From Escherichia coli (GTDB taxonomy: Bacteria > Pseudomonadota > Gammaproteobacteria > Enterobacterales > Enterobacteriaceae): a DNA stretch of 64,000 bases. The number at the start of each line of letters is the position of its first letter. The stretch's first letter is position 1. The position numbers were made by a program. The stretch is from assembly GCF_048403405.1 (NCBI RefSeq), contig NZ_CP183129.1; one strand, 5' to 3'. Of this stretch, positions 35,988 to 38,900 are shown piece after piece.

Positions 35988-38900
35988 TGATAATCCTCCC
36001 GCCAGAAGAATAAAACATAGCCCGGTATACAAGTGTATACCGGGCTTTTTTGATCAAAATTCCATTTTCACCGTGAATTGCACTTCACGCGGATCGCCAA
36101 TCTGATTCCCCAGATTATTTGTGGCGATGGAAGAGGTGTAATACGTTTTATCAAACAGGTTTTTGACGTTTAATTGCAGTGTGACCGGATACTGCAATTT
36201 CATTTTGTATGCGGCGAAGGCATCGGCAACGAAATAGCCTGGCAGATAATAGTCAGCCCCATTGGTTGCCGAACGACGGCTTACGCCATGTCCACCACCG
36301 CCAAACGTCAGTGTGTTATTGCCTGGCATGTTATGAATGTCATAGGTCAGGAATAGCGAACCGGTATGACGAGGAACATTCGGCAATGGTTTCCCTGCAT
36401 AATCAGGATCTTCCAGAACCTTAGCATCGGTATAGCCGTAGCTGGCAATGATATTAATGTTTTCAGTTAATGCTCCCGCAAGGTCGACTTCTACCCCTCT
36501 TGAACGAACGCGGCCTGCCGTTTTGGCGATGGTTTCATCACCAATACTTTCGGTATACAACACGTTACGTTTATGGATATCAAACAGCGCAATATCTGCG
36601 GTGATACCATCGAACAGCTCGAATTTTGCCCCGACTTCGTAAGCATTAGATGATTCCGGTGGAAGATCTCCGATGTAGCTGGCAATTGACGATTGCGGCA
36701 TAAATGTTTGCGAATAATTAGCAAATAAGGATACCGATGGCGTCAGTTTGTAGACTAACCCCAGTTTGGGCGTCCATTGTTCATCGCGGCTGTCAGTATT
36801 GACATTAAAAGGACGGCCTTTACCCGCATACTGCGTGTAATACTGATAGCGGATCCCGGCGACGGCAATCCAGTTATCGGTCAGATAGAGCGCGTCCTGT
36901 GCATAAGCTGAGTAGCTCTCCTGTTTGATCGTCTGATCGCTGTCCGACGCCGAGACAGTTGTGCATTTGCTGGTATTGCCGTAAACAGGGTTGTAGATAT
37001 TGAAATCTTTAGCGTTTTTACAGCGAATCATATCTGTGCGCAGAAGATCATAATATTCATATGACACCCCACCCAGAATCTCATTATAGAACCCAGCAAT
37101 ATCAACATTCCCTTGCAGATCCGCACGAGTAGCATGCATACGCTGGGTAGATCCCTGAGTTGCATCAACACGCCGTGTCAGCGTTCCTGTCGTTGCATCA
37201 TACGCGGTAACACGAGCCTGATTATCGCCGTATTTATCCTGGCTGTAGCTGTAATCAAAGCGCGCTGTCCACTGGCTATTGAGATGATATTCTGCGTTGA
37301 GTTGCGCCAGATCGGACTGACCATCTGTAATATTAAACGGTTCGTCAAAACGTATTTTTCGATCAACGTTTACGGGCTGTTTCGTCGTAAGGTCGAAAAT
37401 CGTTCCACGATCGAACGGAGTTTTATAGTCCCGATGGGAATAGAGCATGGTTACTGTTGCATTATCACCAAACCAGGTGAGTGACGGGGCAATAAATGTA
37501 CTGCGCTCTTTACCGAAGTTTCGCCAGTAATCTTCATCCTGCACTTCCCCCGTCAGGCGGTATGCCAGCTGAGTGCCTTCAATGGGACCTGTGATATCAA
37601 GTTGCCCAGTGCCTCCGCCAAAACTGGAGGACGTGGCTGAGACAGAACCATGGAATGTTTTTTCCGGGCGCTTGGTCACGACGTTAATCAATCCACCAGG
37701 ATCGAGAATGCCATACAGCGTGGAGGCCGGACCTTTTAGCACTTCCACACGTTCTGTGGCGGCGTTGAAACTGCGAGGAAGTACAGTTCGCAGGCCGTTG
37801 GTCATGATGGAGCCATCCCGGTTAGCACCAAACCCACGACGTACAAAGGCGTCCTGAGTTCCGCCTAATGTATTGGTCTGTACCACGTTACTGACGTTAT
37901 AAAGCGCTTCATCCAGCGTCGTTGCATTCTGATTTTCCAGAACCTGATCGCTAACCGTATTGACCACCTGCGGGATATCCAGCATCGGCATATCGGTTAA
38001 TGTCGCCATGGAGGTGCTCAGAGGTTGATAACCATCGGTCGCCTCAGTTGCGGTATTTGCATCCGCTGTAACAGTGATTGTTTCGCCATCTTTGGTCGTT
38101 GCAGTGTCGGTTGCATGAATCATTGGTGCTGCAAAGAGCAGTGAAAAGAGCGCCCGACCTTTGATTCCTGAGAATGAAGGTGTGAACTTAGCCATTTAGT
38201 CTGTTATCCCAAAAACTCACGGATTGTCGTGAGTGAAAATTGTTTCTTGTTGCTCACTAAGCACTATCCGTTTGTTATTTCACCATCGGATATGTAATTG
38301 AGAATCATTCAACCATGCGGTGATGTAGTAGTAAATGAGAAATAACAAAAAATTGCTACATGTGTTTTTATGAGAGGTTAATGCAATTCAATTGATGGTA
38401 ATTTATTAATATTTAATGGTTTTATTTTTATCTTTAAAAATATTTCACCTGTTATTTACCTTGTTTTTGTATGGATTTTAACTTCTTGACTACTACATTT
38501 TGTGGCGTCAAACTCTCAAAGGAGAATGAGTTTTATTTTTGTTTGTCTTTGATTAAGTTGGCGTACACGTGGCACATAACGCAAAAGGGCAGGGGCTGAT
38601 CCTCGACAATGTTTCTGCCGGGTATCACAAGAAAATCATTGTTGATGGTGTTTCTTTCTCCGTTCCCACAGAAAAAATGACCGTTCTGGTTGGGGCAAAC
38701 GGCTGTGGAAAGTCGACGTTGCTCAGCACCATTGCACGTATCTTGCAACCTATGGGCGGCTCGATATTGCTGGATGGTAAAGCGATTCACGAGCAACCAA
38801 CGAAAGCGTTATCCCGTAGACTTGGGATCTTGCCGCAGTCGCCATTATTGCCGGAGGGCTTAACCGTTTATGAACTGGTGTCGCGTGGGCGTTTTCCCTG

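What the first reader, a model, noticed from the sequence alone, without database searches (positions are those of the whole stretch)
38196..38568. AT-rich divergent promoter region with a candidate Fur box
The 370-bp intergenic region between the receptor gene and the ABC operon is strongly AT-rich. It contains gtaattgagaatcattcaa at 38294-38312, which matches 12 of 19 positions of the Fur consensus. Iron-dependent repression of one or both divergent transcripts would fit the predicted function. The match is modest.
Basis: seen in the sequence. Interest (0 to 1): 0.35.

Follow-up and report, generated by a model that had tools for sequence, protein, structure and literature searches.

The report
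Fur-repressed fit iron-uptake promoter region

Summary
Window 38196-38568 is a 373-bp, 30.6% GC gap between fitA (TonB-dependent receptor, minus strand) and fitBCDE-fitR (plus strand). The 19-mer at 38294-38312 matches the Fur consensus at 12 of 19 positions.

That match alone is chance level. 66% of shuffled copies of the region reach 12/19. A Fur matrix built here from K-12 promoters gives 8.8 bits (P=0.45).

Independent evidence supports the interpretation:
- The 19-mer is identical in every fitA-bearing locus examined, across about ten genera, while its flanks diverge.
- Published Fur ChIP-exo peaks in strains 042 and CFT073 lie on it at 38305-38317. The Sakai peak also does after a +128 coordinate shift.
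- Published fur-mutant data show strong derepression of fitA and fitB.

It scores 15.5 bits, the best hit in the whole window, is conserved, and also lies under a ChIP-exo peak at the fitB promoter.

Two further conserved elements, ATGTAGTAGTAAA and TTGACTACTACAT, overlap both -35 hexamers. They carry the TGTAGT/ACTACA half-site known for RpiR-family regulators, so they are probably FitR operators. The fitA leader also has two covarying hairpins.

Verdict: real and functional, but Fur control of fit is already published. Interest is low.

The parts
38196..38568 (.). fitA-fitB divergent intergenic control region (373 bp, 30.6% GC)
   Evidence: ORFs and RefSeq annotation. Composition. Identified as the fit bidirectional promoter region studied in PMC2593036.
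Its core, TGAGAATcATTCAAC, resembles the 7-1-7 Fur motif, and it overlaps the proposed fitA -10 hexamer and transcription start.
   Evidence: 12/19 to the consensus and 8.8 bits, which is chance level alone. Identical in 23 of 23 aligned loci and in Kosakonia, Sodalis, Erwinia, Raoultella and Serratia. Absent in Tatumella, which has no fitA. Fur ChIP-exo peak at 38305-38317 in 042 and CFT073, and in Sakai after a +128 shift.
It lies at about +1 to +20 of the proposed fitB promoter.
   Evidence: 15.5 bits, the top Fur PWM hit in the whole 64-kb window. P(max >= 15.5) = 0.015 in shuffles. The stretch conserved in at least 21 of 23 sequences is exactly these 19 bases. In distant genera the sequence drifts; the Fur score is 16.7 (Tatumella), 15.5 (Kosakonia, Raoultella), 14.0 (Sodalis), 11.7 (Serratia) and 8.0-8.4 (Erwinia). 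ChIP-exo peaks at 38515-38530.
38323..38337 (.). Conserved block ATGTAGTAGTAAATG. Candidate FitR (RpiR-type) half-site TGTAGT, overlapping the proposed fitA -35 (TTTACT, the reverse complement of 38330-38335).
   Evidence: Conserved in at least 21 of 23 sequences. Kept in all distant genera, including fitA-less Tatumella. One arm of a 13-nt, 92% inverted repeat with 38486-38498. TGTAGT/ACTACA is the half-site of the RpiR-family regulator RccR (PMC5489143).
38485..38498 (+). Conserved block CTTGACTACTACAT. Proposed fitB -35 (TTGACT, 38486-38491) fused to a candidate FitR half-site ACTACA.
   Evidence: Positions 38485-38497 are invariant in 23 of 23 sequences and are kept in all distant genera. 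Other arm of the inverted repeat with 38323-38335.
38509..38514 (+). Proposed fitB -10 hexamer CAAACT, 17 bp after TTGACT.
   Evidence: Inferred. In every genus the hexamer exactly 17 bp after TTGACT has A at position 2 and T at position 6: CAAACT, CAATAT, TAAGAT, CATGAT, CAAAAT (sequences). It falls below the threshold of the generic promoter scan.
38307..38315 (-). Proposed fitA extended -10. On the minus strand it reads TGgTTGAAT, 17 bp after TTTACT.
   Evidence: Inferred. The TG, the hexamer and the 17-bp spacing are invariant across genera. The hexamer has T rather than A at position 2, so this assignment is weaker. It was not found by the generic scan.
38355..38360 (+). GCTACA, a third and only partly conserved TGTAGT/ACTACA-type half-site.
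   Evidence: CTAC is invariant and the following A is at least 90% conserved in the 23-sequence alignment. It is present in Kosakonia and Tatumella but not in Raoultella or Serratia.
38266..38291 (-). Hairpin A in the fitA 5' leader.
   Evidence: RNAalifold finds 3 of 5 pairs covarying. 92.9% of cells are paired, against 17-39% when partners are slid. 25 cells have changes on both sides, against 9.6 +/- 2.3 in shuffles (0 of 500 reach the observed value). G-U pairs occur only in the fitA-sense reading.
38215..38234 (-). Hairpin B in the fitA 5' leader (ACUCACG-acaauc-CGUGAGU), ending 19 nt before the AUG.
   Evidence: CFT073 carries a double A:U to G:C change. There are 22 distinct hairpin sequences at the same place in 23 loci. 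Independent perfect stems of 7-10 bp occur in Raoultella, Serratia, Lelliottia and several Enterobacter, with per-sequence shuffle P <= 0.02.
38410..38422 (.). Central AT-rich spacer carrying a third Fur ChIP-exo peak, in strain 042 only.
   Evidence: Peak P110 of Gao et al.. Only weak PWM hits of 5-7 bits. Not conserved between genera.
36054..38195 (-). fitA, TonB-dependent siderophore receptor gene.
   Evidence: TIGR01783 match with E = 7e-111. RefSeq annotation.
38569..43246 (+). fitB (ATPase), fitC and fitD (permeases), fitE (binding protein) and fitR (RpiR-family repressor) operon.
   Evidence: NCBIfam hits. RefSeq annotation. Gene roles as given in PMC2593036.

Best explanation
The 373-bp gap is the bidirectional control region of the fit siderophore-uptake locus.

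When iron is plentiful, Fe-Fur binds two separate operators, one per promoter. The weak but invariant box at 38294-38312 lies over the -10 hexamer and start site of the fitA promoter. The strong box at 38522-38540 lies at about +1 to +20 of the fitB promoter. Binding at these positions excludes or stalls RNA polymerase, so receptor and transporter are repressed together and released together when iron is scarce.

A second repressor, FitR, acts independently. It most likely binds the conserved TGTAGT/ACTACA elements that overlap both -35 hexamers.

Shown by published work: Fur and iron dependence of both transcripts, Fur occupancy within about 10 bp of both boxes, and FitR binding to the fragment.

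Inferred here: the exact operator bases, the promoter hexamers and the FitR sites.
For: - Locus identity.
- Published fur-mutant, iron and FitR data.
- Published Fur ChIP-exo peaks, iron-replete only, in three strains. They map by sequence onto 38305-38317 and 38515-38530.
- Delta-fur RNA-seq shows derepression of fitA and fitB.
- Fur PWM: 38522-38540 is the best hit in 64 kb at 15.5 bits, with shuffle P = 0.015.
- Phylogenetic footprint: in an intergenic alignment with only 64% mean column identity, the stretches conserved in at least 21 of 23 sequences are exactly the two Fur-like boxes and the two TGTAGT/ACTACA blocks.
- All four elements persist in Kosakonia, Sodalis, Erwinia, Raoultella and Serratia.
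- The fitB-side box drifts in sequence; its Fur score stays at 11.7-16.7 bits in five of the six distant genera and is 8.0-8.4 in Erwinia.
- Tatumella has lost fitA and has lost only the fitA-side box.
- Several K-12 Fur-regulated promoters (exbB, fhuA, feoA, fecA, tonB) have best PWM-selected sites with only 10-12 of 19 consensus matches.
- The RpiR-family regulator RccR uses TGTAGT/ACTACA half-sites.
Against: - The fitA-side box scores only 8.8 bits. That is below every leave-one-out score of the training sites (9.4-19.8) and is indistinguishable from chance by sequence alone.
- Its total invariance is more than an 8.8-bit Fur site would need, so other constraints (promoter, mRNA 5' end, another protein) probably share it.
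- The ChIP-exo peak centres sit 8-9 bp inward of both box centres. ChIP-exo cannot separate the box from the neighbouring TGTAGT block with certainty.
- No promoter passed the generic sigma-70 scan. The proposed fitA -10 has T at position 2.
- Two other PWM hits of 14-15 bits in the window have no reported Fur peak, so the PWM over-calls.
- The PWM was derived by EM seeded with the consensus, not from curated footprints.
- No transcription start data or footprint was available. The 2006 paper could not be read.
Confidence: 0.82

Rival explanations
1. Fur contacts only the strong fitB-side box, perhaps spreading or looping from there. On this view 38294-38312 is conserved for another reason: it is the fitA core promoter and start site, or the site of another protein such as FitR. 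Its Fur resemblance would then be incidental.
For: The site scores 8.8 bits and is chance level. Its invariance exceeds what a weak Fur site would require. It overlaps the proposed -10 and start site. Fur is known to give extended secondary footprints (PMC2189734). A third, non-conserved peak in strain 042 suggests spreading over AT-rich DNA.
Against: A discrete iron-replete ChIP-exo peak falls at the same 13 bases (38305-38317) in 042 and CFT073, and in Sakai after the inferred shift. It lies 200 bp from the strong box. fitA is the more strongly derepressed gene in delta-fur strains. The central GAAT-C-ATTC palindrome is the Fur 7-1-7 core. The non-Fur conserved elements share a different motif, TGTAGT/ACTACA, which accounts for FitR.
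Confidence: 0.13
2. The 12/19 match is a chance occurrence in AT-rich DNA with no function.
For: Shuffles reach 12/19 or more in 66% of trials. The PWM gives P = 0.445.
Against: The sequence is identical in 28 of 28 fitA-bearing loci from about ten genera while neighbouring columns diverge. It is lost together with fitA in Tatumella. A ChIP-exo peak lies on it.
Confidence: 0.02
3. The invariant block acts mainly at the RNA level, as the 5' end of the fitA mRNA. It would form part of a structured leader together with hairpins A and B. In Enterobacter the 5' AUUACAU can pair with AUGUAAU at the start codon.
For: Covarying hairpins lie immediately downstream. Minimum-free-energy folds of Enterobacter leaders pair the 5' end with the start-codon region.
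Against: Only about the last 6 bases of the block would be transcribed if the start is near 38299. The 5'-3' pairing is absent in E. coli. No Rfam family matches. This reading does not explain the Fur ChIP peak.
Confidence: 0.03

Closest known systems
The E. coli fit promoter region as published (Ouyang & Isaacson 2006/2008; Fur ChIP-exo and RNA-seq of Gao et al. 2023)
   Same: It is the same object. The gene order fitA | fitBCDE-fitR beside parE is the same, and the fragment used for the FitR EMSA was a 347-bp intergenic piece from this gap. Fur and FitR act as two independent repressors. Fur peaks were reported in 042, CFT073 and Sakai.
   Different: There is no functional difference. The window's copy differs from 042 at four bases, all in the central non-conserved part of the gap. 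In 2008 the authors stated that the exact Fur and FitR sites were not yet identified. The base-level assignment given here is new detail, not new biology.
Fur boxes of bidirectional enterobactin promoters in E. coli K-12 (fepA-fes, fepD-entS, fepB-entC)
   Same: These are divergent iron-uptake operons with Fur sites over the core promoters. The fitB-side box (15.5 bits) falls in the same score range as those sites, which give 12.7-19.8 bits leave-one-out.
   Different: In fit the two promoters are about 200 bp apart, each with its own box. The fitA-side box is weaker than any training site. A second, locus-specific repressor (FitR) is superimposed.
RpiR-family operators: RccR and HexR of Pseudomonas (TGTAGT/ACTACA; TTGT-N7-8-ACAA)
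   Same: The conserved fit blocks ATGTAGTAGTAAA and TTGACTACTACAT carry the same TGTAGT/ACTACA half-site. FitR has the HTH_6 + SIS architecture and matches HexR-type models.
   Different: In fit the two strongest half-sites are 165-188 bp apart, in inverted orientation, over two different -35 hexamers. They do not form a 15- or 28-bp pseudo-palindrome. FitR controls iron uptake rather than carbon metabolism, and its ligand is unknown. Binding of FitR to these bases has not been tested.

Membership tests
Fur box / Fur-repressed promoter (E. coli type) | Sequence match to the Fur motif beyond chance | tested here: inconclusive
   The fitA-side site (38294-38312) does not meet this: 12/19, 8.8 bits, shuffle P = 0.445 to 0.66. 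The fitB-side site (38522-38540) meets it: 15.5 bits, best in the window, P = 0.015.
Fur box / Fur-repressed promoter (E. coli type) | Fur occupies the site in vivo in an iron-dependent way | not testable with these tools
   Published ChIP-exo peaks under the iron-replete condition only, in 042, CFT073 and Sakai (PMC10164565, Dataset 2). They were mapped here onto 38305-38317 and 38515-38530. This is taken from the literature and was not re-measured.
Fur box / Fur-repressed promoter (E. coli type) | Expression is derepressed in a fur mutant or under iron limitation | not testable with these tools
   Published results. fitA rose 23-fold in a fur mutant, and a lacZ fusion rose from 168 to 525 units on iron deprivation (PMC2593036). 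Delta-fur log2 changes were +3.5 to +8.1 for fitA and +1.8 to +5.9 for fitB.
Fur box / Fur-repressed promoter (E. coli type) | Operator overlaps the core promoter or transcription start | tested here: inconclusive
   Conserved -35/17-bp/-10 arrangements place both boxes over -10/+1 (fitA) or +1 to +20 (fitB). No promoter passed the generic scan, and no mapped start site was available.
Fur box / Fur-repressed promoter (E. coli type) | Site is conserved in orthologous promoters | tested here: met
   Both boxes are conserved in at least 21 of 23 aligned loci. In six further genera the fitB-side box is present in all, though weak in Erwinia, and the fitA-side box is present in the five that keep fitA and absent in Tatumella.
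Fur box / Fur-repressed promoter (E. coli type) | Direct protection by purified Fur at these bases (footprint) | not tested
   No footprint was found in the accessible literature. The 2006 paper is not held.
RpiR-family (HexR/RccR-like) operator, for the TGTAGT/ACTACA blocks | TGTAGT/ACTACA-type half-sites in inverted orientation | tested here: met
   A 13-nt, 92% inverted repeat at 38323-38335 and 38486-38498. Invariant across genera. The half-site is identical to that of RccR.
RpiR-family (HexR/RccR-like) operator, for the TGTAGT/ACTACA blocks | Half-sites spaced as a 15-28 bp pseudo-palindrome bound by one dimer or tetramer | tested here: not met
   The two main half-sites are 165-188 bp apart. 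The nearer GCTACA, at a 25-nt spacing, is only partly conserved.
RpiR-family (HexR/RccR-like) operator, for the TGTAGT/ACTACA blocks | The cognate regulator binds these bases | not tested
   FitR shifts the whole 347-bp fragment (PMC2593036). The bases it contacts are unknown.

The most novel reading that the evidence does not exclude
Beyond the known Fur control, the fit region may be a compact dual-repressor switch. In this reading FitR bridges two TGTAGT/ACTACA half-sites that sit over the two -35 hexamers, 165-188 bp apart, looping the DNA. The fitA mRNA would also carry a previously undescribed, structurally conserved two-hairpin leader, absent from Rfam, that adds post-transcriptional control to a TonB-dependent receptor. 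The complete invariance of the weak fitA-side Fur box would then reflect a composite element shared by Fur, RNA polymerase and the mRNA 5' end.
Probability: 0.2. Interest if true: 0.4.

Novelty: already known. Interest (0 to 1): 0.15.

Why it matters
The fit system is an accessory iron-uptake locus present in about a third of complete E. coli genomes (1870 of 5426), including extraintestinal and enterohaemorrhagic strains. Its Fur and FitR control is already published. The finding therefore mainly confirms that a sequence-only reader can point to a real operator, though for a statistically weak reason.

The added value is modest. This analysis proposes base-level positions for the two Fur operators, which the 2008 authors said were still unmapped. 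It identifies a probable FitR operator motif. It also finds a covarying fitA leader structure. All three could guide simple mutational tests.

Tried and rejected
- The 2006 fit paper (PMC1698097) is not held, so any Fur box proposed there could not be checked. A later search for fit Fur-box papers found only the 2008 paper.
- The generic promoter and terminator scan of 38100-38700 found nothing. The promoter assignments therefore rest on comparative conservation only.
- The Rfam scan of the region gave one spurious plant miRNA hit (E = 0.044, far below gathering score), so no known RNA family is present.
- RyhB pairing with the fitA leader was tested. An 8-9 nt complement (GUGAGCAA or GGGCAAUG) sits at the same place in 22 of 23 leaders, but such a match occurs in 17-45% of shuffled leaders, and duplex energies are not exceptional. 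This was rejected as evidence. The full-length RNAduplex run gave unrealistically long duplexes and was discarded.
- Hairpin B was considered as an intrinsic terminator or attenuator. The U-run is present only in Escherichia and is absent in other genera, and the scan found none. This was not adopted.
- A sigma-E or ECF-type promoter at fitB (AACTT ... TCAAA) was considered by eye. The spacing is wrong (23 nt) and the upstream element is not conserved. This was rejected.
- The Sakai ChIP-exo coordinates as printed fall inside fitB and the central spacer of NC_002695.2. With a +128 shift, three Sakai peaks coincide with those of 042 and CFT073. I attribute the shift to an older record version from memory and did not verify it.
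- Other strong PWM hits in the window were checked against the ChIP-exo tables: the ttdR-ttdA gap (15.4 bits) and the ribB/ubiK gap (14.5 bits). Neither is listed, which shows that PWM score alone is not reliable.
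Full report
**What is in the window.** Positions 33-44 kb are E. coli chromosome in the order yqiA, parE, a 713-aa TonB-dependent receptor gene (36054-38195, minus strand), a 373-bp gap, then an ABC ATPase gene (38569-39378, GTG start). Two FecCD permease genes, a binding-protein gene and an RpiR-family regulator gene (42359-43246) follow, then ygiN and mdaB. The stretch is 100% identical to several complete E. coli genomes and is present in 1870 of 5426. This is the fit locus: fitA divergent from fitBCDE-fitR (PMC2593036).

**Checking the observation.** The 19-mer gtaattgagaatcattcaa is at 38294-38312 and matches the Fur consensus at 12 of 19 positions. The gap is 30.6% GC, against 48-51% in the flanking genes, with a minimum of 25.5%.

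**Is it more than chance?** It is not, on sequence alone. About 100 positions in the window reach 12/19 or more. Dinucleotide-preserving shuffles of the gap reach 12/19 or more in 66% of trials.

To score the region properly I fetched 15 Fur-regulated K-12 promoter regions. I derived a palindromic 19-bp matrix by EM seeded with the consensus, using 21 sites. It reproduces the consensus GATAATGATAATCATTATC, and leave-one-out scores run from 9.4 to 19.8 bits.

That ranks 22nd in the window, and 44.5% of shuffles do as well. It is the best hit in the entire 64 kb, with shuffle P = 0.015. One caveat is that two other hits of 14-15 bits in the window (the ttdR-ttdA and ribB-ubiK gaps) have no reported Fur peak, so the matrix over-calls. 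Several K-12 Fur-regulated promoters (exbB, fhuA, feoA, fecA, tonB) have best PWM-selected sites with only 10-12 of 19 consensus matches, so a 12/19 match does not exclude function either.

**Published experiments.** Ouyang & Isaacson (2008) cloned this gap in both orientations before lacZ. They showed induction by iron deprivation (168 to 525 units), 23-fold derepression of fitA in a fur mutant, and an additional, independent repression by FitR. FitR shifts the 347-bp fragment. They stated that the exact Fur and FitR sites were still to be identified.

Gao et al. (2023) report Fur ChIP-exo peaks, under the iron-replete condition only, inside this gap. There are three in strain 042, two in CFT073 and two in Sakai. 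Their delta-fur log2 changes are +8.1, +3.5 and +3.9 for fitA and +5.9, +1.8 and +3.3 for fitB in 042, Sakai and CFT073.

I fetched the three records and mapped the peaks by sequence. 042 P109 and CFT073 P123 fall at 38515-38530, overlapping the left end of the strong box. 042 P110 falls in the central AT-rich spacer at 38410-38422. The Sakai coordinates fit only after a +128 shift. I attribute the shift to an older record version; this is from memory and not verified. With the shift, three Sakai peaks coincide with those of the other strains.

**Phylogenetic footprint.** A scan of one genome per species with FitA returned 21 loci in Escherichia, Enterobacter, Lelliottia, Silvania and Huaxiibacter, with FitA 82-99% identical and the same divergent layout. 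I aligned 20 of them with the window, CFT073 and Sakai. In this 23-sequence alignment of the gap, mean column identity is only 64%. The stretches conserved in at least 21 of 23 sequences are:

- 38323-38337 (ATGTAGTAGTAAATG)
- 38485-38497 (CTTGACTACTACA)
- 38522-38540, which is exactly the strong PWM 19-mer

Through FitR homologues (69-78% identity) I reached Kosakonia, Sodalis, Erwinia, Raoultella, Serratia and Tatumella. All four elements persist in these genera. The fitA-side 19-mer is identical wherever fitA exists. The fitB-side box drifts in sequence; its Fur score stays at 11.7-16.7 bits in five of the six genera (Sodalis 14.0, Tatumella 16.7, Serratia 11.7) and falls to 8.0-8.4 in Erwinia. 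That pattern, apart from Erwinia, is what selection on Fur binding predicts.

Tatumella is a natural deletion experiment. It has no fitA. It has lost the fitA-side box but keeps TGTAGTAGT, CTTGACTACTACA and the fitB-side Fur box.

**Promoter architecture (inferred).** On the fitB side, the invariant TTGACT (38486-38491) is followed after exactly 17 bp in every genus by a hexamer with A at position 2 and T at position 6: CAAACT, CAATAT, TAAGAT, CATGAT or CAAAAT. The strong Fur box starts 6-7 bp later, at about +1 to +20.

On the fitA side, the minus strand reads TTTACT, then 17 bp, then TGgTTGAAT. The TG, the hexamer and the spacing are invariant. The generic scan found no promoter, and the fitA hexamer has T at position 2, so these assignments need experimental start sites.

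**The non-Fur conserved elements.** ATGTAGTAGTAAA and TTGACTACTACAT form a 13-nt, 92% inverted repeat with 150 nt between the arms in E. coli; start-to-start spacing is 165-188 bp across genera. Each overlaps one -35 hexamer. TGTAGT/ACTACA is the experimentally defined half-site of RccR, an RpiR-family regulator related to HexR (PMC5489143). FitR is an RpiR-family protein with weak matches to the HexR model.

So there are two kinds of conserved element, one of each per promoter, matching two independent repressors that each control both promoters. I assign the Fur-like pair to Fur and the TGTAGT/ACTACA pair to FitR. The second assignment is inference.

**The fitA leader.** Between the proposed start and the ATG lie two hairpins that keep their position while their sequence changes.

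- Hairpin A (38266-38291): 92.9% of cells are paired, against 17-39% in slid controls. 25 cells have changes on both sides, against 9.6 +/- 2.3 in shuffles.
- Hairpin B (38215-38234): CFT073 shows an A:U to G:C double change. There are 22 distinct sequences in 23 loci. Independent perfect stems of 7-10 bp occur in Raoultella, Serratia and others.

No Rfam family matches. An 8-nt complement to RyhB sits between the hairpins but is not statistically distinguishable from chance.

**Mechanism and rivals.** The best explanation (confidence about 0.8) is classical Fur repression through one operator per divergent promoter, with FitR superimposed. The main rival (about 0.13) is that Fur truly contacts only the strong fitB-side box and spreads or loops from it, while the fitA-side block is conserved as promoter, start site or another protein's site. 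The discrete, reproducible peak 200 bp from the strong box and the larger derepression of fitA argue against this rival. Pure chance is excluded by the conservation.

**Comparison and novelty.** This is the published fit promoter, and its Fur control is known from genetics, ChIP-exo and RNA-seq. What is new here is detail only: the proposed operator bases, a probable FitR motif and a structured leader. The finding is real and correctly interpreted, but it is ordinary.

Noticed in passing
window 38215-38234 and 38266-38291 (minus strand): The fitA 5' leader has two hairpins whose positions are conserved while their sequences covary across about ten genera. No Rfam family matches. Hairpin B ends 19-25 nt before the AUG, just 5' of the Shine-Dalgarno GGGA. 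Their function is unknown.
   Followed up: partly
window 38323-38337, 38355-38360, 38485-38498: Conserved TGTAGT/ACTACA elements overlap both proposed -35 hexamers. They carry the same half-site as the RpiR-family regulator RccR (PMC5489143) and are probably the unmapped FitR operators. The two main copies are 165-188 bp apart in all genera.
   Followed up: partly
L043 (Tatumella) 2571-3150: This fit locus has no fitA. The fitA-side Fur-like box is gone, but TGTAGTAGT, CTTGACTACTACA and a 16.7-bit fitB-side Fur box are retained.
   Followed up: yes
window about 36700-36713 (inside the fitA coding sequence): A further Fur ChIP-exo peak from Gao et al. maps to the same intragenic position in 042 (P112), CFT073 (P125) and Sakai (P120, after the +128 shift). 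The DNA there is moderately AT-rich (gcgaataattagcaaataagg), but my Fur PWM gives no hit of 4 bits or more.
   Followed up: partly
window 4361-4379 and 19398-19416: Strong Fur PWM hits occur in the ttdR-ttdA gap (15.4 bits) and between the FMN riboswitch/ribB and ubiK (14.5 bits). Neither gene pair appears in the Fur ChIP-exo or regulon tables of Gao et al.
   Followed up: partly
L007-L024 (Enterobacter), fitA leader: In Enterobacter-type leaders the predicted mRNA 5' end AUUACAU is complementary to AUGUAAU, which overlaps the start codon. Minimum-free-energy folds close the whole leader this way. The pairing is absent in E. coli.
   Followed up: no
window 38250-38260 (fitA leader, between the hairpins): The conserved GUGAGCAA / GGGCAAUG is complementary to the RyhB core (CAUUGCUCAC) in 22 of 23 leaders. 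Such 8-nt matches occur in 17-45% of shuffled leaders, so this is unsupported.
   Followed up: yes
L042, 4007-7004: A variant fit operon carries three extra genes (PepSY_TM and two PBP_like_2) inserted between the binding-protein gene and fitR. The record is labelled Pseudomonas cerasi but has an Erwinia/Serratia-like gene context.
   Followed up: no
PMC10164565 Dataset 2, Sakai sheet: The Sakai peak coordinates are about 128 bp lower than in NC_002695.2. Some target assignments there look displaced as a result: peaks inside fitA are labelled parE or yqiA and called 'Intergenic'.
   Followed up: partly
window about 44400-45600: In the matching genome, an orphan Hcp-family type VI secretion gene and a hypothetical gene lie between mdaB and ygiZ.
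   Followed up: no
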